Positions 28,267 through 46,396 are shown, counted from the first letter of the stretch. The stretch: DNA of 64,000 nucleotides from an uncultured Actinomycetota bacterium (GCA_963795385.1 CAWCHK010000012.1:2443-66442); one strand, 5' to 3'. The notes: generated by a model not told the origin, from the sequence alone. Program-made: numbers and translations.

Positions 28267-29069
28267 CGCCCGGCGCCTCGACCGGCCCCGACGCTCCCCT
28301 GGCCGAGATCGTCCCGGAGGCCCGGCGCATCGTCGACGCCGCGGAGCAGGCGCGACTGACCCTGCGGGTGCTGGGTGGCGCCGGCGTCGCCCTGCACGAC
28401 CACGTCACCGTGCCGGACAGCCTTCGACGGACGTACGGCGACATCGACGTCGTCGTACCCGCGAAGTCCACCAGGGCGACGTCGGCGGTCCTGACCGCCC
28501 TCGGCTACCTGCCGAACGAGCGGTTCAACGCGCTGCACGGCGCCCGGCGGATGCTCTTCTACGACACCGCGAACGGCCGGCAGCTGGACGTCTTCGTCGG
28601 CACCTTCGCGATGTGCCACCAGCTCGACCTGAGCCACCGGCTCGGTGAGCACGCCCGGGCGCTCGACGCCGCGGACCTGTTGCTGACCAAGCTGCAGATC
28701 GCCGAGATCAACGCCAAGGACGTCGTCGACGCGGTCCGGTTGCTGTTGTCGCACGAGGTGGCAGACCAGCAGGTGCCGCGCGACAGTCTGGAGCCGGATG
28801 TGCTGTCCCTCAAGCGGTTGCGCGACGTCACCAGCAGCGACTGGGGCTGGTTCACGACGTTCACGGACAACCTCGCGAAGGTGCGTGAGGCGGCCCCCGG
28901 CCTGCTGGACGCCCATGACGGCGAGCGGGTGAACCGGGCCATCGACCAGGTCGACGCGTCCCTGCACGACGCTCCCAAGTCGATGCGGTGGCGGGCGCGC
29001 AGCGTGATCGGCCGCAAGACCCCCTGGTACGAGCTCCCGGAGGAAGTGGAGAGAGGTGCGACTCGGTGA
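28263..29069 (+). CDS. Putative nucleotidyltransferase (Pol-beta/AbiEii-like fold)
   Basis: VLGGAGVALH...GDIDVVV...LDVF...LLTKLQ...KDVVD; ATGA/GTGA coupling on both sides. Confidence 0.65.
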   Translation: MTPGASTGPDAPLAEIVPEARRIVDAAEQARLTLRVLGGAGVALHDHVTVPDSLRRTYGDIDVVVPAKSTRATSAVLTALGYLPNERFNALHGARRMLFYDTANGRQLDVFVGTFAMCHQLDLSHRLGEHARALDAADLLLTKLQIAEINAKDVVDAVRLLLSHEVADQQVPRDSLEPDVLSLKRLRDVTSSDWGWFTTFTDNLAKVREAAPGLLDAHDGERVNRAIDQVDASLHDAPKSMRWRARSVIGRKTPWYELPEEVERGATR

Positions 29070-30017
29070 AGGACGCCAAGATCTTCTTCGCGACGGACAT
29101 TCACGGCTCGGACCGGTGTCTGCGCAAGTTCCTCAACGCCGGCAAGTTCTACGGCGTCGACGCCGTCGTGATGGGCGGTGACATCACCGGCAAGATGATC
29201 GTCCCGGTCGTCGAGGAGGGGCCGGGCCGGTACTCCGCGCACCTGTTCGGTCGCCGGCGTGAGGTCGACTCGGACGGGTTGGCCGGGCTGCACAAGTTCA
29301 TCGCCGACGCGGGCTTCTACCCGCATCCGATGACGCCGGACGAGATGGCCGCGCTCCGGGAGGACCCCGCGGCGGTCGAGGAGCTCTTCCGCAAGCTGAT
29401 GAACGAGACGATGAGCCGCTGGATCGACCTGGCCGAGGACCGGCTGGCCGGCACCGGGATCGAGTGCATCTTCGCGCCCGGCAACGACGACCCGTTCTTC
29501 ATCGACGACCTCCTCTCCAGCAGCGACTCGGTCGTCAATCCCGACGGCCGGGTGGTCGAGCTGCCGGGCGGCTACTCGATGATCTCCGTGGGCTACTCGA
29601 ACCGGACGCCCTGGGCCTCGCCCCGTGAGCTCGACGAGGCCGACCTGCGGGCGGCCATCGACGCCGAGGTGGCCAAGCTCCCCGACCCTCGCGGGCGATC
29701 TTCAACCTGCACGTCCCGCCGAAGGACACCCCGATCGACCAGGCCATGGAGCTCGACGCCGACTTCCGGCCGGTGGTCAAGGGCGGCTCCCCGTCATCAC
29801 CGGCGTCGGCAGCTCGGCCGTGCGGGACGCCATCGCGGAGTACCAGCCGATGCTGAGCCTGCACGGTCACATCCACGAGTCCCGCGGTGAGGCCCGGATC
29901 GGCCGCACCCTCGCGCTCAACCCGGGCAGCGAGTACAGCGAGGGCGTCCTGCGCGGCGTCATCGTCAACCTCTCAGCGAAGAAGGGCCTTCGTGGCTACC
30001 AGCTCGTCTCCGGTTGA
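29066..30017 (+). CDS. Calcineurin-like (Icc-related) metallophosphoesterase, two apparent -1 frameshifts
   Basis: TDIHGS, GGDITGK, PGNDD, NLHVPP (second frame), LHGHIHE and NPGS (third frame). Adding one C at 29686-29688 and one at 29789-29792 restores a single ORF. Confidence 0.82.
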
Positions 30018-35809: not shown

Positions 35810-35841
35810 GTACCCGGCCGGTTACGTACCCGTCAAGTTAC
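35810..35841. promoter_or_regulatory. Tandem 16-bp imperfect palindromes, probable ArsR operator
   Basis: GTACCCGGCCGGTTAC directly followed by GTACCCGTCAAGTTAC, 10 nt upstream of the arsR ATG. Confidence 0.6.
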
Positions 35842-36427
35842 GCACTGGAGGCGTCGCGGACGTCCTCGTGCGACTGCGGCTGACGCCCGCCTGCGTGACG
35901 CCGAGCGCGAGCAGACCGAGCGCGGCGCCGAGGCCGGCCCCAGTCACGTTGTGCACGACGTCCGAGGAGTCGCAGGCCCCGATCCGGTACGCCGCCTGGG
36001 TCGCCTCGATGCCCACGCTGAGGGCGCTCGCGACGAGAACCGCCGCGGCCGCGCCGACGACAGCGGGCCCGGCGCGACCGGCCGCGACGACGGCGAGGAA
36101 GGCGAACGGCACGAAGAGCGCGACGTTCAGGACGGTCTCGGCGCTCAGCCCGCCGGGGTCGGTCACCACGCACGCCGTGGCCGCGCGCGACCAGTCCGCC
36201 CCTGCGTGCAGCAGGCCGGGGCGCAGGACGGTCACGTCGGCCACACCGATCAGCGACAACGCCGCGCCGACGGCGGCGAGGCGCACACCGCCCCACCGCC
36301 CGGCCACCAGCCACGCGACCGGCACCAGGACGAGCGCCAGCAGCACGGTCGGCAGCAGGACGGTGCCGGGGTGGATCACGGTCCGGGCCACGGCCGCGAG
36401 CTGTTCGATCACCGGCCGGTCGCCCAT
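35822..36427 (-). CDS. VanZ family membrane protein
   Basis: LNVALFVPF, SVGIEATQ, DSSDVVHNVTGAGLG; start 36427 or 36412. Confidence 0.8.
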   Translation of the reverse strand: MGDRPVIEQLAAVARTVIHPGTVLLPTVLLALVLVPVAWLVAGRWGGVRLAAVGAALSLIGVADVTVLRPGLLHAGADWSRAATACVVTDPGGLSAETVLNVALFVPFAFLAVVAAGRAGPAVVGAAAAVLVASALSVGIEATQAAYRIGACDSSDVVHNVTGAGLGAALGLLALGVTQAGVSRSRTRTSATPPVRNLTGT

Positions 36428-37098
36428 CGCCGCTGGCCCGGGACGCCCATGGCGATCGGGGCGTAGCGGGTCCGGTCGCGGCCGAGGCTGTGGGCCCAGT
36501 AGCGCTCGCCGTAGGACCAGTGCCACCACTCGGTCGGGTAGTTGACCAGGCCGACCGACGTCAGCACGTGACCGAGCACGCCGCGCAGCTCGCGGGCCTG
36601 GGCGCTGATGCCCCGGGACCCGGTGAAGCAGCGGTTGGCGCTGTCCTCGGGGCTGGCGTTGACGGGCGTACCGAGGTCGAGCTCCACCCCGTTGTCGTGG
36701 CAGAGCGTCAGGTCGACCGCGCCGCCGGTCTGGTGCGGAGCGACCTCCGGCGGCGCCACGAACTTGCTCGCCTCGACGTGGGATCGCGGGCCGTCCCAGT
36801 CCGGGTGCGCGGCGAGCAGCTCGCGTCGATAGTCCTCGAAGTACGCGCGCTGCAGGCTCGGCGGACGGTAGCCCTCGATGACCAGGAGCTGGAAGCCGCT
36901 GGGCAGCAACGACTCCGCGGCCACCAGGCGCTCGACGACGCCGGCCCGGAGGAGCCCGTAGCGGCCGTCGGCATCGGCGAGCCGCCGGTCGAACCGCAAC
37001 GCGTCTCGCGCGTCGACCATCGGTTCGCCACACTCCGCGGAGGCGATGCCCGCGATGCGCGGGTCGGACAGGAGGACAGGCCCGGTGGCGAGGGTCAT
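36409..37098 (-). CDS. D-Ala-D-Ala dipeptidase, M15 (VanX-like) metallopeptidase
   Basis: EGYRP, PHQTGGAVDLTL and EWWHWSYG zinc-ligand motifs. Confidence 0.88.
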   Translation of the reverse strand: MTLATGPVLLSDPRIAGIASAECGEPMVDARDALRFDRRLADADGRYGLLRAGVVERLVAAESLLPSGFQLLVIEGYRPPSLQRAYFEDYRRELLAAHPDWDGPRSHVEASKFVAPPEVAPHQTGGAVDLTLCHDNGVELDLGTPVNASPEDSANRCFTGSRGISAQARELRGVLGHVLTSVGLVNYPTEWWHWSYGERYWAHSLGRDRTRYAPIAMGVPGQRRWATGR

Positions 37099-38219
37099 CG
37101 GACACCCGCCAGGCCGCGCGCCGTGGCTGCGAGCCGATCGGCCCGGCGATCGGCCCGGACCCGCCGCTCCACCGCCAGGACCACCAGCCGGTCCAGCAGC
37201 TCGGCGTAGGAGACGCCACAGGCCTGCCAGACCTTGGGATACATCGAGTACGCCGTGAAGCCGGGCATCGTGTTGAGCTCGTTCACCACCAGCCGGTCGG
37301 CCCGCTCGTCGTAGAGGAAGTCGACCCGGGCGAGGCCCCACCCGCCGATGGCCCGGAAGGCGGCCACGGCCGCGTCCTGCACCCGGCGGGTGACCGGTGC
37401 GGGGAGGGCGGCGGGAACGGTCATCGGGTCCTGCGTCGACAGGTACTTCTGGGCGTAGTCGAACCAGCCGCCGGCCACCTGGACCTCACCGACCGCCGAG
37501 GCCTGAGGCGAGACCCCACCCAGCACACCGCATTCCAGCTCCCGAGCGCCGACCAGGCCCTCCTCGACGAGCGCGCTGGAGTCGTGCTGCAGCGCCAGGT
37601 CGACCGCCGCCGCGAGGTCGTCCGGGTCGCTGACGCGGGTGATGCCGATGGACGATCCGAGGCCGGCCGGCTTGACGAACCAGGGACGGCTGCAGCCGCG
37701 TGATCGCGCTCAGCCGTCCCGGGACCCAGCCCGGCCACCTCGTCGACGACGGCGAAGGGCATCACCTCCAGGCCGGCGGCCGACAGTGCTCGCTTGGTCG
37801 CGACCTTGTCCATCGCGGTGGCCGCCGCGAGGACGCCGGCGCCGACGTAGGCGAGCCCGAAGACCTCGAAAAGCCCCTGCAGCGAACCGTTCTCACCGTC
37901 GGAGCCATGCAGGACCGGGAAGGCGACGGTGAGGCTGGCGCAGGATCTCGGTGCTGACCTCCGGCCCGCGGACGGGTAGCTGGTCGGCCATGGCCGAGCC
38001 GCCGGCGGCGCGGTCGCCCGCGTCGCGGGCCCTTCGGACGTCGACATCCTGCAGGTGGTGCCACCGGCCGTCCCGCCCGATGCCGATGGCCACGACGGTG
38101 TAGCGCACCGGGTCCAGCTGCCGGACGACGGAGGCCGCGGACGCCCGCGACACGTCGTGCTCGGGCGACGCGCCGCCATAGAAGACGCCGACGACCTCGT
38201 GTCGCCGCAGCCCGCTCAC
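37095..38219 (-). CDS. ddl: D-alanine--D-alanine ligase family protein, apparent frameshifts
   Basis: YGGASPEHDVS, FPVLHG..GENG, MDK, FVKP..LGSSIG, WFDYAQKY and NELNTMPGFT spread over three frames (shifts near 37940 and 37680-37735). Confidence 0.82.
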
Positions 38220-39253
38220 GCCGGCTCTCCCGAGCGATCGAGAACGGTCCGGACCAGGGACGGGTCGACGTTCCCGCCCGACAGGAGCACGCCGATGTCG
38301 GCCCCATGCAGGCGCGAGTCGTCCCGGGCCAGGCGCAGGGCCACGGCGACGGCGGTGGCGGCGGACGGCTCGACCAGCTGTTCCGTGTCCTGCAGCGTGA
38401 CGGCGAGCGCGCCGGCGATCTCGGCCTCGGTCGCGACCCGGACGCGCGCGCCCCGCTCGCGGCAGATGCGGAACGGCAGGTCGCCGACCCGGTCCGGGCG
38501 AAGGCCGTCCGCGATGGTCGGCCGAGCCGTCACGGTCACCGGTTGGCCGGCCCACATCGCCTGCCGCAGCGAGTCCACCGCTGCCGGCTCCGCTCCGACC
38601 AGGTCGATGCCGGCGCCCTCGACGCCGCGGACGGACCGGAGCTCCCGATCGTGGTCGCGCACGGCGAGGCACGCGCCCGCCAGGGCGCTGCCGCCCCCGA
38701 CCGGCACCACGATCGCCGCCGGCCGCGCCCCGTCGGCCATCATCTGGTCCAGCAGCTCCGCGATCGCGGTGCCATGCCCTGCAACGACATCGGGATCCTC
38801 GTAGGGGTCGACCAGGTCCAGGCCCTGCGCGCCGGCGATCGCGGCCGCGACCCGTTGCCGCTCGGCCAGGCCGCCCCCCACGAGGACGACCTTGGCTCCG
38901 GTGGCCAGGATGCGCTCCGCCTTGCTCGGCACCACGTCGTGCGGCAGGACGGCCACGGCTCGACGCCTGAGCTCGGCCGCCGCCAGCGCGACCGCGATCG
39001 CGTGGTTGCCGGTGCTCTGCGCCACCAGCCCGCGGCTGCCACCGCGGGCCAGCCGGTCGGCGGCCAGCAGGGCACCGCGCAGCTTGAACGAGCCGCCCCG
39101 CTGGAGGTTCTCCGCCTTCAGCCACAGTCGCGCCCCGGCCCGCCGGTCAAGGCCGGCACTGCGCAGCACCGGGGTCAGGGTCACGCGTCCGGCCAGCCGT
39201 CTCTGGGCCGCCCGGACGCTCGCCGTACCGGGTTCTGGATGTGTCGTCGTCAT
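38216..39253 (-). CDS. PLP fold-II threonine/serine dehydratase or serine racemase family protein
   Basis: LKAENLQRGGSFKLRGA, STGNH, VPVGGG, TIADGL, LSGGN; no ACT domain. Confidence 0.85.
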   Translation of the reverse strand: MTTTHPEPGTASVRAAQRRLAGRVTLTPVLRSAGLDRRAGARLWLKAENLQRGGSFKLRGALLAADRLARGGSRGLVAQSTGNHAIAVALAAAELRRRAVAVLPHDVVPSKAERILATGAKVVLVGGGLAERQRVAAAIAGAQGLDLVDPYEDPDVVAGHGTAIAELLDQMMADGARPAAIVVPVGGGSALAGACLAVRDHDRELRSVRGVEGAGIDLVGAEPAAVDSLRQAMWAGQPVTVTARPTIADGLRPDRVGDLPFRICRERGARVRVATEAEIAGALAVTLQDTEQLVEPSAATAVAVALRLARDDSRLHGADIGVLLSGGNVDPSLVRTVLDRSGEPA

Positions 39254-39295
39254 GGCACCACGGTGGGCCGCGCCCGTCGCGATCGGGTCCGCGTC

Positions 39296-39314
39296 GTGTC
39301 ACAGCTGTGTCATA
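39296..39314. promoter_or_regulatory. OmpR-type direct repeat GTGTCACA-N3-GTGTCATA (GTCAC-N6-GTCAT)
   Basis: 11-bp-period direct repeat in the divergent promoter region. Confidence 0.6.
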
Positions 39315-39375
39315 GTCCGGCCGGCGACGCCTGCAGATGACCCGCCCGGGCCGCCCGCTGGCTCATACTCGGCCT

Positions 39376-40050
39376 GTGTCGCACGTGCTGCTGATCGAGG
39401 ACGACCCGGCGATCCGGGAGGGCCTCGAGCTCGGCCTGCGCCACCTGGGTCACAGCGTCTCGGCTGCGCCCGACGGCGAGTCGGGCCTGCGCGCGGCGGC
39501 CGAGGGGAGCCCCGACGTCGTCGTGCTCGACGTCATGCTCCCGGGGCTGGACGGCTTCGAGGTCTGCCGCCGCCTGCGGGCCACCGGGACGACGCCGATC
39601 ATCATGCTGACCGCCCGCTCCGACGACCTCGACGTCGTGGCCGGGCTGGAGGCGGGGGCCGACGACTACGTCGCCAAGCCGGTGCGGCCGCGGGTCCTGG
39701 ACGCCCGGATCAAGGCGGTGCTGCGACGGGTCAGCGCGGAGCCGTCGGCTCGCCACGAGTACGGCGATCTCGCGATCGACCGGTCGAGCATGGTCGTGAC
39801 CAAGGCGGGTACGCCGGTCGCGTTGACACCGACCGAGCTGCGCCTCCTGCTGGTGCTGTCCGGCCGCCCGGGCCAGGTGTTCTCGCGTGAGCAGCTGCTG
39901 TCGGCCGTCTGGGAGCAGGACTACCTCGGAGACTCGCGACTGGTCGACGCCAGCATCCAAAGGCTCCGGGCCAAGATCGAGGAGGTGCCGGCCCGCCCCG
40001 CCTTCCTGCAGACGGTTCGCGGGTTCGGCTACCGGTTCGGACCCCTGTGA
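39376..40050 (+). CDS. OmpR-family response regulator (MtrA/AfsQ1-like)
   Basis: IEDD, LDVMLPG, GADDYVAKP, QTVRGFGYRF. Confidence 0.92.
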   Translation: MSHVLLIEDDPAIREGLELGLRHLGHSVSAAPDGESGLRAAAEGSPDVVVLDVMLPGLDGFEVCRRLRATGTTPIIMLTARSDDLDVVAGLEAGADDYVAKPVRPRVLDARIKAVLRRVSAEPSARHEYGDLAIDRSSMVVTKAGTPVALTPTELRLLLVLSGRPGQVFSREQLLSAVWEQDYLGDSRLVDASIQRLRAKIEEVPARPAFLQTVRGFGYRFGPL

Positions 40051-41150
40051 ACGGCGGCCTGCGGTCGCGGCTGATCACGGGCTTCGTCGTGGTGACGGCC
40101 CTGACCGTCCTGATCTCCTCAGTGACGGCGGTCATCGGTGCGCTGTTCGTCTACACCACGCATCCGATCGGCTCGGCCGAGTTCGGCCGGAGGGTCCTGT
40201 CGACCTGGCCGTTCTCCTCGATGTCGGACCAGGACCTGGTCTGGGTGGTCGTGGTCGCCGGGCTGGGCCTGCTGGTCATCGCGGTGGGAGCGGGCTGGCT
40301 CGTGGCCCAGCGCATGCTCCGCCCGGTGCGGACGCTGGCCCAGGCGGCCGAGCAGGTCGCCCGGGGGGACCTGGCCGTGCGGCTGCGGCCGACCGGCAAC
40401 GACGAGCTGGCCCAGCTGGTCGCGACGTTCAACGCGATGACCTCCAACCTGGACCGGTCGATGAACGAGCTGCGGCGGATGGAGGCCCAGTCGCGGCGGT
40501 TCGCCTCGGACGTGTCGCACGAGCTGCGCAGCCCGCTCGCAGCGATGACCGCGGTGACCGAGGTCCTGTCGGACGAGGCGGCAGACATGTCCGGGCCGGC
40601 CGGGCAGGCCTCCCGGCTCGTGGTCCAGGAGATCGCGAACCTCGACCGCCTGGTCAACGACCTGATCGAGATCTCCCGGTTCGACGCGGGGACAGCGGTG
40701 CTCGACGTCGACGTCGTGACGGTCGCGTCCGCGGTACGCGCCTGCCTCGCCCTGCGCGGCTGGTCCGCGGCCGTGACGGTCGAGGTCCCGGAGGACCTCC
40801 AGGTCACCCTCGACCGGAGGCGGTTCGACGTGATCGTGGCCAACCTGGTCGGCAACGCGATGCGGTACGGCGAGCCGCCGGTGCAGGTGGCCGCCTGGTC
40901 GGTGCCGGATCGGGGCGAGGTCGTGCTGACCGTCGCCGACCACGGGCCGGGCATCGCCCAGGACGCCCTGCCGCATCTGTTCGAGCGGTTCTACAAGGCC
41001 GAGGCGGCGCGCACCCGGTCGGGCGGCAGCGGTTTGGGGCTGGCCATCGCCCTCGAGAACGCCCGGCTGCACGGCGGTGACCTCCTGGCGGCCAACCGCG
41101 TGGACGCGGCCGGTGCCGTGTTCACGTTGACGCTCCCGGCAGCGACCTGA
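40047..41150 (+). CDS. HAMP-domain sensor histidine kinase
   Basis: Two TMs with a short loop, HAMP, SHELRSPL, NLVGNA, DHGPG, GSGLGL. Confidence 0.92.
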   Translation: MNGGLRSRLITGFVVVTALTVLISSVTAVIGALFVYTTHPIGSAEFGRRVLSTWPFSSMSDQDLVWVVVVAGLGLLVIAVGAGWLVAQRMLRPVRTLAQAAEQVARGDLAVRLRPTGNDELAQLVATFNAMTSNLDRSMNELRRMEAQSRRFASDVSHELRSPLAAMTAVTEVLSDEAADMSGPAGQASRLVVQEIANLDRLVNDLIEISRFDAGTAVLDVDVVTVASAVRACLALRGWSAAVTVEVPEDLQVTLDRRRFDVIVANLVGNAMRYGEPPVQVAAWSVPDRGEVVLTVADHGPGIAQDALPHLFERFYKAEAARTRSGGSGLGLAIALENARLHGGDLLAANRVDAAGAVFTLTLPAAT

Positions 41151-41191: not shown

Positions 41192-41659
41192 TCAGGCCAA
41201 CGGGACGTCGAGGTGCATCCGCAGGCCGGCGCCGAACTCCGTGTCGGCGCTCCCGTCGACCACGAACCCCGCGGCCCGGTAGAACCCGAGCGCATGCTCG
41301 TTCGCCGTCACCTCGACCCGGGTGGCTCCTTCGGCAGCGGCCTGCGAAGCGATGGCCTGGATCAGGGCGCGGGCCACCCCTCGCCGCATCCACGCCGGCT
41401 CCACGAACAGGTCGTCCAGCTCGAGAGCGGTGCGGGTCGGCTGCGTGCTCGCGAAGCCGACGACGGTGCCGCCCGCCAGCGTCGCTACCCAGGCCCGCCC
41501 GCTGCCGGCCAGCTCCTCGGAGAGCTGGAGCGCCTCGGGGTGAGCGATCAGTGCAGCCCGGTCGCCGTCGTTGGACAGGGAGGCCCGGCGGAACACCCCT
41601 TCCATGGCCGGGGTGTCACCTGCTCTGGCGACCCGGACCTCGACCAGGCTCACCAGCAC
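41192..41659 (-). CDS. GNAT family N-acetyltransferase
   Basis: LFVEPAWMRRGVAR, N..ALGFY...GF. Confidence 0.85.
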   Translation of the reverse strand: MLVSLVEVRVARAGDTPAMEGVFRRASLSNDGDRAALIAHPEALQLSEELAGSGRAWVATLAGGTVVGFASTQPTRTALELDDLFVEPAWMRRGVARALIQAIASQAAAEGATRVEVTANEHALGFYRAAGFVVDGSADTEFGAGLRMHLDVPLA

Positions 41660-41802: not shown

Positions 41803-41829
41803 CTCAACTGCGTGCCGGAGGTAGTCGAC

Positions 41830-42295
41830 GTGCCCGAACCGCGAGTGCCACGTGTACGCCTGGAGTGGGACCTCGTGCTCGCTGCGGCGGCCGGCGGTGT
41901 CGTCGGGGCCGAATCGCGTTACGGCGTGGGGCTTCTGGTGCCGCATACGCCGCGCCAGTTCCCCTGGTCGACGGTGGCTGATCAACGTCTCGGGCTGCCT
42001 GCTCATCGGCATCCTCATGGTCACGCTCCTCGAGCTCGCCACTCCCCACCGCCTGGCGCGGTCGTTCCTGGGCGTCGGCATCCTGGGCGGCTACACGACG
42101 TACTCGAGCTTCAGCGTCGACGCACAACGCCTTCTCCTGGCTCACCGGCCCGCCGTTGCGCTCGCCTACGTCGTCGTGACGGTGCTGGGCTGCGCGGCCG
42201 CGGTCTGGTTGTCCACCACCGCAACCACGGTGGCCGGCCGGGCCGTCATCGAGCGCCGGGTGAGGCGCCGCGGGAGTGGAGGGACGGCGCCGTGA
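41830..42295 (+). CDS. crcB: Fluoride channel Fluc/CrcB subunit 1, apparent +1 frameshift at ~41976
   Basis: GGVVGA..RY, FPWST/LINVSG, GILGGYTTYSSF. Confidence 0.82.
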
Positions 42296-42657
42296 CGATC
42301 CTGATGATCGCTCTCGGGGCCGCGGTGGGCGCACCCGCGCGGTATCTGAGCGACCGGGCGATCCAGTCCTGGCACCGGACCGTCTTCCCGTGGGGCACCC
42401 TGACCGTCAACGTCGTCGCCTCACTCGTCCTCGGCATCGTCGCGGGGGCGGGCTCGGCCCTGGACCCGGATCTCGCGATGCTGATCGGGACCGGCTTCTG
42501 CGGTGCACTGTCGACCTACTCGACGTTCAGCTACGAGACGCTGCGCCTGGCCCAGGGTGGCTTCCGGCTCTCGGCGGCGGCCAACGTGGGCATCTCGCTC
42601 GTCGCCGGCGTCGGCGCTGCTGCGCTGGGCTGGTCCGTGGGTGTCGCACTGACGTGA
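42292..42657 (+). CDS. crcB: Fluoride channel Fluc/CrcB subunit 2
   Basis: GAAVGAPARY, FPWGTLTVN, GFCGALSTYSTF..E. Confidence 0.9.
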   Translation: MTILMIALGAAVGAPARYLSDRAIQSWHRTVFPWGTLTVNVVASLVLGIVAGAGSALDPDLAMLIGTGFCGALSTYSTFSYETLRLAQGGFRLSAAANVGISLVAGVGAAALGWSVGVALT

Positions 42658-43827
42658 GCACCGCCGTGAGCAACGCCGTCGTGGTCGGGCGAGCCGCCCA
42701 TCATCCTCAGCATCGGGACGCCGCCGGAGCGCAGGAACCGGACCACGAGGGCGAGCGCCACCAGCAGGAAGACGATGTTCAGCACGGTCGTGTAGTTCCA
42801 GGTGACGCCGGTCTCGCCGACCTTGGCCGAGCGCTCGGTCGGGGACCAGCCCGAGACCGCCGAACACCAGCTCGACGACGTAGCCGGCGACGACCATGGT
42901 GGCGTAGAAGATGCCGAGCAGCACCAACATCATCCGGGTGCCGTAGTACTTCCGGTAGATCACCAGGATCGGGAGGATGATCAGGTCCGCGAAGACGAAG
43001 GACACCACGCCGCCGAAGCTGATGCCGCCGTTCCACAGCACGCCGGCCAGCGGCACGTTGCCGATCGAGCAGACGAAGCTCAGCACCGCGATGACCGGCC
43101 CGACGACGGGCCCCCAGACCTTGCTCGCGAGTGAGTGATCGGTGAGGAACACGTGCTGCCAGAAGGACTCGGGCACCCACGCCCCGACGGCGCCGGCGAT
43201 CAGCAGGCCGATGACGATGTCGCGAATCACCGCCGCCCACTCCATCACGAAGATGTGGCTGACCGCGGTGTAGCCGTCCCTGCTGCGCGAGTCGGCCCCG
43301 AGAAGCCGCCCTCGGACCGGATGGACATGTCCATCGCAGCGTGGCCCTCCATCGACCCGGCCAGTCCCCTGTCGGCCTGCTCGCGCGCCGCGTCGATCAG
43401 GCGCTCGCGGACGAAGATCCGGAAGGCGACCGCCAGCAACACGATCATGATCGGGCCGCCCACGAACTCGGCCAGGGTGAACTGCCAGCCGAGCAGCAGG
43501 GCCAGGATCACGCCCAGCTCGATCACCAGGTTGGTCGAGGCGATCTCGAAGACCATGGCCGAGGTGAAGCTCGCACCCTTGCGGAACAGCGAGCGGGCCA
43601 GGGCCACAGCGGCGTACGAGCACGAGGAGGATGAGGCGCCCAAACCCGTTGCTATCGCTAAGGTTCGCGGCCGATCGTCTCCCAGCAGCCGCGCCGATCG
43701 TCTCGCGGCGTACGACGGCCTGGATCACTGCCGACAGTGCGAAGCCCAGGATGAGTGACCAGGTGATCTGCCAGGTCATCGACCCAGCCACACCGAGCGC
43801 GTGGCCGAGCGCGTCGAGGACCGCCAC
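42531..43827 (-). CDS. ArsP/DUF318-type permease, three apparent frameshifts
   Basis: SSSCSYAAVA, ASTNLVIELG, SFVCSIGNVPL and FADLII motifs in alternating frames (shifts ~43695, ~43290, ~42840); 3' end uncertain because it overlaps crcB2. Confidence 0.75.
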
Positions 43828-45619: not shown

Positions 45620-45660
45620 GACCGTCACCTCCCGAGTTCACGAACGTCTCTCACCCTGTA

Positions 45661-45687
45661 GACGAGACAGCCCGGCCGGACGTGACA
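45661..45687 (-). promoter_or_regulatory. ECF41-type promoter TGTCACG-N16-CGTC
   Basis: 16-nt spacing and near-exact match to the TGTCACA-N16-CGTC ECF41 consensus, upstream of the qcrB paralogue. Confidence 0.6.
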
Positions 45688-45729
45688 TCGGCGATTCCCT
45701 CCAGGCTCGGTCGACCCAAACGACACGGC

Positions 45730-46396
45730 TCAGACGCGAGAGGCCCGGACCAGCGCGGGGAGGTCGGCCATGTCGTCCATCAAGGTGGTCTCGGGACCGC
45801 GGAGCCGGTCGGCGGGGACCAGGCCCGTGACGTAGGCGATCGAGCGCATCCCGGCCGCGCGCGCCGCCGCCAGCCCGGGGGGCGAGTCCTCGACGACCAG
45901 GCACCGATCGGGGGGCACCCCCATGACCGCGGCGGCGTGCAGGAACAGGTCCGGCGCGGGCTTGCCACGCTCGACGTCCTGCGCGCTGAACCGGCGCCCC
46001 TCGAACGCCTCGGCCAGCCCGACCCGGCCCAGGTTCTTGACGACCTTCGCGTGCGACCCGTTGGACGCGACGGCATGCTCCACGCCGAGCGCGGTGATGG
46101 CCGCGATGGCGTCCGCCACCCCCGGGACCGCCTCGAGCTCGGTCGAGAAGGCGTCCTCGTACCAGCTCTCGTACGGCTCGTCCCAGCCGTCCTCGAGCGC
46201 GCCGCCCGAGCTCGGCCTCGACCGCCGCTCGCCAGTAGTCGTCGGTGCACCCGGCGAAGCGGTCGATCAGCACCTCCGGAGTCACCGCCCATCCGAGGTC
46301 GGTCAGCACCGCCGCTCCGACCCGGGCCGCGATCGGCTCGGAGTCGACCAGCACCCCGTCGCAGTCGAAGATCACCAGACTGATGTCGTCGCGCAT
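45730..46396 (-). CDS. HAD-family phosphatase, apparent frameshift at ~46200
   Basis: FDCDGVLVDSE in one frame; VASNG, KPAPD and VEDS..G in another. Confidence 0.8.

What the first reader, a model, noticed from the sequence alone, without database searches (positions are those of the whole stretch)
35822..41150. van-like cell-wall remodelling cluster with a PLP dehydratase/racemase in place of VanH/VanT
Seen: a coupled operon (PLP fold-II enzyme, Ddl, VanX-like dipeptidase, VanZ) divergent from an OmpR/HAMP two-component pair, with a direct-repeat box between them. Established: vanHAX and vanC-XY-T use the logic 'make an alternative D-substrate, ligate it, destroy D-Ala-D-Ala'. Here the ligase has Ddl-type signatures (GSSIG, omega loop WFDYAQKY, SMYP) rather than those of VanA (FRIHQE, SRYP). 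Co-expressing a plain Ddl with a D-Ala-D-Ala dipeptidase would be futile. Inference: the ligase makes a non-canonical D-Ala-D-X terminus supplied by the PLP enzyme, or the cluster protects against D-cycloserine, D-serine or a dipeptide antibiotic.
Basis: partly seen in the sequence, partly recalled or inferred. Interest (0 to 1): 0.7.

Follow-up and report, generated by a model that had tools for sequence, protein, structure and literature searches.

The report
Van-like operon with probable serine racemase
This actinobacterium carries an accessory cell-wall operon of the published but untested 'pdx' type, which likely makes D-serine and ends its wall precursors in D-Ala-D-Ser, a change that would give low-level vancomycin resistance using a different kind of racemase from the one enterococci use.

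Summary
In detail: a coupled PLP fold-II enzyme, a second Ddl, an M15D dipeptidase and VanZ face an OmpR/HAMP pair across a conserved 11-bp repeat. The arrangement is not new: it is the 'pdx operon' described in silico in Micromonosporales (PMC8698665); I found no experimental follow-up. This copy is a variant with another sensor pair, its own box and vanZ. The ddl has three frame changes, probably assembly errors: 34 of 217 orthologues are broken in this assembly, and 83-85% identical homologues are intact.

New evidence favours a racemase feeding a D-Ala-D-Ser-type ligase. The PLP enzyme precedes the ligase in 33 of 33 ligase-found loci and has Thr at the serine-racemase re-face site. Its closest relatives accompany NRPS modules that lack epimerase domains and carry an altered Gly-type code (6 of 6 genomes). 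The ligase clade has Phe at VanG Phe252 (155 of 155; housekeeping Ddl Tyr, 41 of 42). Relatives add VanY-N, VanRS-O-like regulators or a VanT-type membrane domain.

Against: the ligase has Met, not VanG's Arg324; the dipeptidase is far from VanX; no activity was tested. Verdict: new variant of a known kind, with a testable mechanism.

The parts
35822..36427 (-). VanZ-family membrane protein, last gene of the operon
   Evidence: PF04892 E 1.2e-11, NF033125 vanZ-A only 22.7 bits of 250. Absent from 37 related loci, but in the same order in P0126 from another assembly.
36409..37098 (-). M15D (VanX-like) zinc D,D-dipeptidase of the pdx 'APH' clade
   Evidence: PF01427 E 6.5e-14; VanX equivalog 34.5 of 320 bits. 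The motifs that carry VanX's Arg, His, Asp, Glu and His (GYRP, H..G.AVD, EWWH) align to 1R44; the Ser-Ser before the first His is Ala-Pro (residue roles recalled).
37095..38219 (-). Accessory Ddl-family ligase of the pdx clade, broken in this assembly by three +1 frame changes (about 37935, 37725, 37695)
   Evidence: Tree support 100 for the pdx plus sister clade. 119 of 120 clade-conserved columns kept, GC3 0.91-0.95. Intact 83-85% homologues P0121-P0123.
38216..39253 (-). PLP fold-type II enzyme without ACT domain, QSTGNH subfamily; predicted serine (threonine) racemase
   Evidence: PF00291; below every NCBIfam cut-off. Lys57 and Thr81 align with the serine-racemase Lys and re-face Ser. Thr in 120 of 120 closest homologues.
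39296..39312 (-). 11-bp-period direct repeat TGACAC-N5-TGACAC, 43-59 nt upstream of the PALP start; predicted binding site of the adjacent regulator
   Evidence: CACnnnnGTGAC and a downstream GGAC are invariant in 7 promoter regions. An exact pattern was found in 6 of the 8 fetched loci with this TCS type and in none of 19 with the Micromonospora TCS. 2 matches in the genome, 1 with the GGAC.
39364..39369 (+). CATACT, 7 nt before the probable GTG start (39376) of the regulator; predicted -10 element of a leaderless transcript
   Evidence: Sequence; conserved in L002, L079, L083. Function inferred.
39376..40050 (+). OmpR-family response regulator, CseB/MtrA-like, not VanR
   Evidence: CseB 261.9 of 350, MtrA 247.4 of 300, VanR-ACDEGLN 166.6 of 350 bits. 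65-79% identical to regulators in L002, L017, L020, L021, L079, L083, L200, L201; about 35% to the Micromonospora pdx regulator.
40047..41150 (+). Sensor histidine kinase with two membrane helices, a short (about 25 aa) outside loop, and HAMP, HisKA and HATPase domains
   Evidence: hydropathy.

Best explanation
This is a pdx-type accessory operon that likely switches peptidoglycan precursors from D-Ala-D-Ala to D-Ala-D-Ser under envelope stress. Shown: gene content, coupling, clade membership, residues, conserved box. Inferred steps: (1) the membrane kinase senses cell-wall stress, possibly a lipid II-binding antibiotic, and the regulator binds the repeat and activates the operon; (2) the fold-II PLP enzyme racemises L-Ser to D-Ser, with Thr81 as re-face proton donor, doing VanT's job with an unrelated fold; (3) the accessory ligase joins D-Ala to D-Ser, probably with modest selectivity; (4) the M15D enzyme removes D-Ala-D-Ala made by the housekeeping Ddl; (5) the resident MurF uses the new dipeptide; (6) VanZ acts as an accessory. 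The result would be low-level glycopeptide resistance, since D-Ala-D-Ser precursors are bound about 3-8-fold less tightly (PMC8541618).
For: Linkage: PALP lies directly upstream of the ligase in 33 of 33 loci found with the ligase (37 of 37 with four PALP-found loci); M15D is in 31 of 37; none has alr, murF, RidA or a 2-hydroxyacid dehydrogenase. All 5 genomes checked, and G000, keep another Ddl. Ligase: Phe at the VanG Phe252 column in 155 of 155 pdx ligases versus Tyr in 41 of 42 housekeeping rows; Gln at VanG Glu256 versus Ala in 39 of 42. PALP: re-face position is Thr in 120 of 120 homologues; S84T is the one human serine-racemase mutant that kept racemase activity (PMC6424897). The window enzyme groups with NRPS-cluster PALPs (support 100). 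All 6 of 251 Streptomycetaceae genomes with this PALP have an A domain with a DM-type code (5 in the same locus); the modules inspected have no epimerase domain. Of 17 related modules in genomes without the PALP, 16 have the DIL Gly-type code. Partners: VanY-N above cut-off in L017; VanR-O and VanS-O among the best hits for the Micromonospora TCS; an Acyl_transf_3 gene, the family of VanT's membrane domain, in 14 of 37 loci from two unrelated lineages. The same M15D clade sits with alanine-racemase paralogues and accessory ligases in L019, L051, L209, L210.
Against: All 155 pdx ligases have Met where VanG and VanA have Arg324/SRYP; I recall that Arg-to-Met lowers D-Ser use in VanC2 (Healy 1998, not read). 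The ligase scores better against Ddl than VanG models (C-terminal piece 220.8 vs 148.3 bits), and its fold neighbours are ordinary Ddl. S84T racemises 10-fold less well, and the best family hits are dehydratases. That DM-type A domains load D-Ser rests on recalled chemistry; one DM-type module occurs without the PALP (G800), and the kettapeptin cluster lists no such PLP gene (PMC12804128). The Acyl_transf_3 genes are only weakly like VanT-N (phmmer E about 1e-4 for 2 of 5, none for 3) and could be O-acetyltransferases. The TCS is not VanRS. M15D is missing in 6 of 37 loci (two end at contig ends). The 155 ligases are mostly related Micromonospora sequences, not independent. This copy of ddl is broken in the assembly.
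Confidence: 0.5

Rival explanations
1. Same logic, another terminus: the PLP enzyme supplies D-allo-Thr or D-Thr, or 2-oxobutyrate leading to D-2-aminobutyrate, and the ligase makes D-Ala-D-X with a larger or non-polar side chain.
For: Phe plus Met, rather than Phe plus Arg, around the second subsite would suit a non-polar side chain (inference). Thr replaces Ser at the re-face site in all homologues. The best family hits are threonine and hydroxyaspartate dehydratases.
Against: No aminotransferase or RidA gene in the pdx core. Five NRPS-type loci carry an E2-like acyltransferase (L080, L084, L087, L249, L251), which by recall acts on a serine-derived hydroxymethyl group.
Confidence: 0.17
2. 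Quality control against toxic D-amino acids: the PLP enzyme destroys D-Ser or a related compound, the peptidase cleaves mis-made dipeptides, and the extra ligase restores D-Ala-D-Ala.
For: The ligase keeps the KY Tyr, GSSIG and SM(Y/F)P of DdlA-type enzymes. The M15D differs from VanX next to the first zinc His, so its substrate may differ. Fold-II racemases also eliminate (PMC6424897).
Against: Control is by a membrane kinase, and relatives carry VanY-N, VanRS-O-like pairs, PAP2 phosphatases and VanZ. Next to NRPS modules the same PALP looks biosynthetic. An invariant non-housekeeping omega loop is not needed for plain Ddl activity.
Confidence: 0.12
3. Depsipeptide route: the PLP enzyme dehydrates Ser/Thr to a 2-oxo acid, a dehydrogenase elsewhere reduces it, and the ligase makes D-Ala-D-Lac or D-Ala-D-2-hydroxybutyrate.
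For: The sister ligase group L020-L022 sits with a 2-hydroxyacid dehydrogenase and MurF, with RidA in L020 and L021 and a dehydratase-type PALP in L020 and L022. The operon order mirrors vanHAX (PMC8698665).
Against: No dehydrogenase in 37 pdx loci. The omega loop lacks VanA's RIHQE and keeps KY. The PALP of L020 and L022 is another subfamily, with Gly at the re-face site. Pyruvate needs no dedicated supply.
Confidence: 0.07
4. Protection against D-cycloserine or another Ddl or racemase inhibitor by target duplication.
For: An extra Ddl copy and possibly an alternative D-amino-acid source.
Against: A co-expressed D,D-dipeptidase would deplete the product that D-cycloserine already limits. No alanine racemase copy in 37 loci. 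D-cycloserine inhibits VanC2 and DdlB alike (PMC12004154).
Confidence: 0.05
5. Whatever the family does, this copy is a recent pseudogene and the operon is dead in this strain (independent of the other rivals).
For: Three frame changes within 250 bp is denser than the assembly average (34 of 217 genes broken; 3 of 62 with distant queries). No read or contig bridged the breaks.
Against: All three breaks lie in short homopolymer runs. 119 of 120 conserved columns are kept and GC3 is normal. The other five genes are intact. Close homologues are full length.
Confidence: 0.12

Closest known systems
pdx operon of Micromonosporales (Andreo-Vidal et al. 2021, PMC8698665; in silico only)
   Same: Same PALP-Ddl-VanX-like order. 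The ligase falls in one clade with Micromonospora loci that fit the description. Same QSTGNH and APH motifs.
   Different: Divergent CseB/MtrA-like TCS, about 35% identical to the tandem VanRS-O-like pair. It has its own repeat box and a vanZ. Its PALP is closer to NRPS-cluster PALPs than to Micromonospora ones. The host is not Micromonospora.
D-Ala-D-Ser van operons (vanC, E, G, L, N)
   Same: Racemase, ligase and D,D-peptidase logic; Phe at VanG 252 and a polar residue at 256; Acyl_transf_3 gene in 14 of 37 relatives.
   Different: Fold-II PLP enzyme instead of Alr-fold VanT; Met instead of Arg324; M15D instead of VanXY; the ligase has a separate origin among Ddl.
vanHAX / vanRS of enterococci and actinomycetes
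   Same: Supply gene, ligase, M15D order; vanZ; two-helix kinase with a short outside loop like VanS-A (26 aa, PMC8541618).
   Different: No VanH; no RIHQE or SRYP; M15D scores 34.5 of 320 bits against VanX; the regulator is not VanR; VanA (L078) branches elsewhere.
Fold-type II serine racemases (human, S. pombe, plant; 3L6B, 1V71, 5CVC) and T. thermophilus threonine deaminase 1VE5
   Same: PLP Lys, SxGNH loop, EP...D motif, no ACT domain; E 3e-43 to 5e-30.
   Different: QSTGNH, with Thr at the re-face position. No member of this subfamily has a solved structure among the hits, and I found none characterised.

Membership tests
pdx operon | PALP, Ddl-like and VanX-like genes in one operon, in that order | tested here: met
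pdx operon | Ligase in a distinct clade apart from VanA and from the host's housekeeping Ddl | tested here: met
   (quick tree, SH-aLRT 100, 89 rows). The paper's own sequences were not used; Micromonospora loci matching its description were.
pdx operon | Adjacent two-component pair | tested here: met
   A pair is present, but it is another lineage: about 35% identity to the Micromonospora VanRS-like pair, and divergent. Hence a variant.
D-Ala-D-Ser van operons (vanC/E/G/L/N) | Arg at VanG position 324 (SRYP) | tested here: not met
   Met in 155 of 155
D-Ala-D-Ser van operons (vanC/E/G/L/N) | Phe at VanG position 252 in the omega loop | tested here: met
   155 of 155 versus Tyr in 41 of 42 housekeeping rows; its role in D-Ser choice is recalled, not read
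D-Ala-D-Ser van operons (vanC/E/G/L/N) | VanT, an Alr-fold serine racemase | tested here: not met
   PF00291 enzyme instead; no alr in 37 loci
D-Ala-D-Ser van operons (vanC/E/G/L/N) | D-Ser-ending precursors and low-level vancomycin resistance | not testable with these tools
   needs LC-MS and MIC
vanHAX | VanH D-lactate dehydrogenase in the operon | tested here: not met
vanHAX | VanA-type ligase (RIHQE loop, SRYP) | tested here: not met
vanHAX | VanX equivalog score | tested here: not met
   34.5 of 320 bits; metal motifs kept
Fold-II serine racemase | PLP lysine and fold-II domain without ACT | tested here: met
   Lys57
Fold-II serine racemase | Hydroxyl re-face acid (Ser84 in human) | tested here: inconclusive
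   Thr81; S84T keeps 10-fold lower racemase activity
Fold-II serine racemase | Measured L-Ser to D-Ser conversion | not testable with these tools
   needs an enzyme assay

The most novel reading that the evidence does not exclude
pdx operons are an independent, actinobacterial invention of D-Ala-D-Ser glycopeptide resistance. They use a Thr-type fold-II (eukaryote-like) serine racemase, shared with NRPS clusters that load free D-Ser, and a ligase that selects D-Ser without the VanC/VanG arginine. One ligase clade swaps its supply module (fold-II racemase, Alr paralogue, or dehydratase-RidA-dehydrogenase) and its sensor pair. Such operons would be missed by van-gene databases.
Probability: 0.4. 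Interest if true: 0.72.

Novelty: new variant of a known kind. Interest (0 to 1): 0.48.

Why it matters
The pdx operon was flagged in 2021 as needing experiments, with its PLP enzyme labelled a dehydratase. The evidence here gives a specific, cheap hypothesis: the enzyme is a D-Ser-forming racemase, and intact homologues (P0121 to P0123, L017, many Micromonospora type strains) are available to test it. If true, it adds a third enzyme solution to glycopeptide-target remodelling and widens the environmental resistome beyond what van profiles detect. It would also give natural-product miners a marker (QSTGNH PALP plus DM-type A domain) for free D-Ser loading. The effect on resistance would probably be small, and no pdx-clade ligase was found in the plasmid collection (best 47% identity).

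Tried and rejected
Reads: five runs held small shares. A few near-identical 151-269 bp contigs lay on the cluster, but none bridged the ddl breaks, so this is no evidence either way. No RNA holder was listed. Repeat finder: it missed the 6-bp box at minimum length 7. Phylum sample: 5 of 401 genomes hit at E<=1e-95, all 49-51% identical and outside the pdx clade; the frameshifted own copy was also missed, so the search is not fully sensitive. ESM Atlas returned only generic threonine-dehydratase clusters. AlphaFold model of intact homologue P0121 (pLDDT 91.7) and Foldseek gave ordinary Ddl folds and no specificity information. Literature: no experimental pdx paper; no paper linking this PALP to racemase activity in NRPS clusters. 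The VanG structure paper and the VanC2 paper of Park 1997 were not held. The kettapeptin supplement could not be read; it and the pdx paper's supplements, which I did not open, may bear on A-domain codes and pdx membership. Earlier scan findings: four look-ups, nothing. The Ddl tree is the quick tree; the careful search did not finish; 19 distinct distant or partial rows were dropped (listed). My code-extraction regex mis-picked one position in L254 and L257; the alignment shows Q. My ORF caller missed M15D in L197-L199; tblastn found it. Rejected: that the TCS is VanRS; that the ligase is VanA-like; that the box is significant without conservation. No complex prediction was run.


Full report
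Observation. The window is G000:C12:2443-66442 of a 4.1-Mb, 72% GC, 82%-complete actinobacterial assembly. On the minus strand lie a PALP enzyme (39253-38216), a Ddl-family ligase (38219-37095), an M15 peptidase (37098-36409) and a VanZ protein (36427-35822), with overlapping stop and start codons. On the plus strand lie an OmpR-type regulator and a HAMP kinase (to 41150). The genome has an intact housekeeping ddl (43% identical), alr, murF and murG elsewhere, and no second M15D or VanA. The cluster was not found in the four congeners (53-100% complete), so it is accessory.

Frameshifts. Against intact homologues the ddl changes frame three times, by +1 each, near 37935, 37725 and 37695, each in a short C or G run. 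Full-length homologues 83-85% identical exist (P0121-P0123). The pieces keep 119 of 120 columns conserved in at least 98% of 155 pdx ligases, and GC3 is 0.91-0.95. The assembly is error-prone: 34 of 217 genes matched to a congener show a frame change or stop (some may be real or my ORF calls), and 3 of 62 with distant queries. Three breaks in 250 bp is still dense, and no contig bridged them. I put artefact at about 85-90%.

What it is. A scan with the ligase returned 71 loci. The top 18 all have PALP directly upstream, and 15 have the M15D downstream. This is the 'pdx operon' of Andreo-Vidal et al. 2021 (PMC8698665; abstract, passages and section 2.1.3 read). That paper calls the PALP a serine-threonine dehydratase, suggests D-Ala-D-Ser-like remodelling, and says function is unknown. 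Two searches found no experimental follow-up. The ligase is in 17 of 201 genomes of Micromonospora's family and was not found in 401 genomes drawn across the phylum. In a quick tree the window ligase joins L002 and L083 (98) inside a clade of 37 pdx and 5 sister rows (100), apart from housekeeping Ddl and VanA. Over 37 pdx loci: PALP 37 (33 of 33 ligase-found), M15D 31, Acyl_transf_3 14, VanRS-O-like tandem pair 19, window-type pair 6, vanZ 0, alr/murF/RidA/dehydrogenase 0. PALP plus ligase is the fixed core; peptidase and regulator are exchanged. L017 has a true VanY-N (273.5 bits, cut-off 250) in place of the M15D.

Regulation. The regulator is CseB/MtrA-like, below all cut-offs and not VanR. 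The kinase has two helices and a loop of about 25 aa. The repeat at 39296-39312 is not significant alone. But CACnnnnGTGAC and a following GGAC are invariant in 7 promoter regions. The exact pattern appears in 6 of 8 loci with this TCS type and none of 19 with the Micromonospora pair; it also hit 9 other loci. It resembles the GTnAC-n6-GTnAC boxes of actinobacterial OmpR regulators (PMC10704036, passages). Only one genome site has box plus GGAC, so the regulon is probably this operon alone.

Ligase. VanG (4FU0) has FFDYTEKY with Phe252 and HSRYP with Arg324. pdx ligases have xFD(Y/F)xQKY in 155 of 155, housekeeping rows xYD(F/Y) in 41 of 42 and Ala before KY in 39 of 42. The Arg is Met in all 155. 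From memory (Healy 1998, seen only as a reference listing), both the Phe and the Arg favour D-Ser in VanC2, so pdx has half the signature. Many of the 155 are related Micromonospora sequences.

PLP enzyme. Its best structures are threonine deaminase 1VE5 and serine racemases. Thr81 occupies the re-face Ser position and is Thr in 120 of 120 homologues. In human serine racemase S84A, D and N lose racemisation while S84T keeps it at a tenth (PMC6424897, passages). Its nearest relatives outside pdx lie in NRPS clusters (support 100). In 251 Streptomycetaceae genomes, 6 have this PALP, and all 6 have an A domain with a DM-type code, 5 in the same locus. The modules inspected are C-A-T, C-A-T-TE or A-T-TE without an epimerase domain. 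In the reverse search the four best A-domain hits were PALP genomes; 16 of the other 17 had the DIL Gly-type code, and one (G800) a DM code without PALP. Five loci carry the E2-like acyltransferase that, by recall, helps turn a serine hydroxymethyl into an exocyclic methylene in spirotetramates. G705 encodes an azinothricin-type line with a Phe-like, methylated, epimerised fourth module and PALP behind the last module; I recall variapeptin ending in D-Ser. Both an A domain with Asp235 and a Ddl need an amino acid, not a 2-oxo acid, so a racemase giving free D-Ser is the simplest shared function. Against this, the kettapeptin cluster table lists no such gene (PMC12804128, section 3.3 read), and passages of the aurantimycin and polyoxypeptin papers gave no help. 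Four searches found no paper on this subfamily.

Other parts. The M15D keeps the metal and catalytic motifs of VanX but scores 34.5 of 320 bits and has Ala-Pro-His for Ser-Ser-His, so its substrate is open. The same clade accompanies alanine-racemase paralogues and accessory ligases in L019, L051, L209 and L210, putting PALP in a racemase's seat. A VanT-like protein has an Acyl_transf_3 membrane domain. Such genes join pdx in two unrelated lineages, but sequence likeness to VanT-N is weak.

Mechanism and odds. Stress-induced D-Ser synthesis, D-Ala-D-Ser ligation and D-Ala-D-Ala removal (logic and the 3-8-fold affinity loss from PMC8541618, passages): 0.5. Another D-X: 0.17. D-amino-acid detoxification: 0.12. 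Depsipeptide: 0.07. D-cycloserine protection (PMC12004154, passages): 0.05. Separately, pseudogene in this strain: 0.12. No activity was measured. PMC6411801 and PMC13755311 were read as passages only and changed nothing.

Verdict. It works like a D-Ala-D-Ser van operon but is not a member of vanC/E/G/L/N or vanHAX. It is a variant of the pdx operon with a different sensor pair, box and vanZ. The arrangement is known; the racemase argument and the modular ligase clade are the new parts. Interest 0.48.

Noticed in passing
L020:6284-14246, L021:3-5811, L022:2927-9762; L019:3228-8943, L051: A sister ligase group (FSDYAQKY, RSV(F/Y)A; about 100 clusters at 63-93% identity) sits with murF and either an alr paralogue plus M15D (Actinoallomurus) or a 2-hydroxyacid dehydrogenase, RidA and a dehydratase-type PALP. 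L020 and L021 have the window-type regulator and box. It may make a D-hydroxy-acid depsipeptide by a non-VanA ligase.
   Followed up: partly
L081, L082, L084, L214, L245, L250-L253, L255: QSTGNH PALP genes track with NRPS A domains of a DM-type, Gly-derived code lacking an epimerase domain: a possible marker for direct loading of free D-Ser in tetramate and azinothricin-type clusters.
   Followed up: partly
L209:6183-12089, L210:6042-10773: Same-order genomes have M15D (APH clade), alr, a distant ligase with HSQ(V/A)P, a HisKA_3 two-component pair and, in L209, an Acyl_transf_3 gene: another untested van-like arrangement.
   Followed up: no
L017:3844-4407: VanY-N above the NCBIfam cut-off between the window-type TCS and PALP-ddl, replacing the M15D.
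   Followed up: partly
L200:1759-2673; L202:7792-8436: PAP2 phosphatase genes next to pdx operons; in L200 a copy of the box lies just upstream.
   Followed up: no
P0126: A 587-aa protein reading ligase C-half, M15D and VanZ in one frame in another assembly; probably frameshift-made, but it shows the same gene order with vanZ.
   Followed up: no
window 41192-41659 (-): GNAT acetyltransferase convergent with the kinase; GNAT genes also flank L020 and L021. Membership of the cluster not shown.
   Followed up: no
window 28988-30017, 41812-42295, 42421-43827, 45638-46383: Other genes in the window look frameshifted (phosphoesterase-like, crcB, ArsP permease, HAD-like), fitting an error-prone assembly.
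   Followed up: partly
L078 (G039:C2:456064-459468): A canonical vanHAX cluster in a same-order genome.
   Followed up: no
L214/L238 (NZ_CP107901.1): Plasmid-borne azinothricin-type cluster with prephenate dehydratase, IlvE and phenylacetate-CoA-ligase-like genes, by recall the set that makes cyclohexenylalanine.
   Followed up: no
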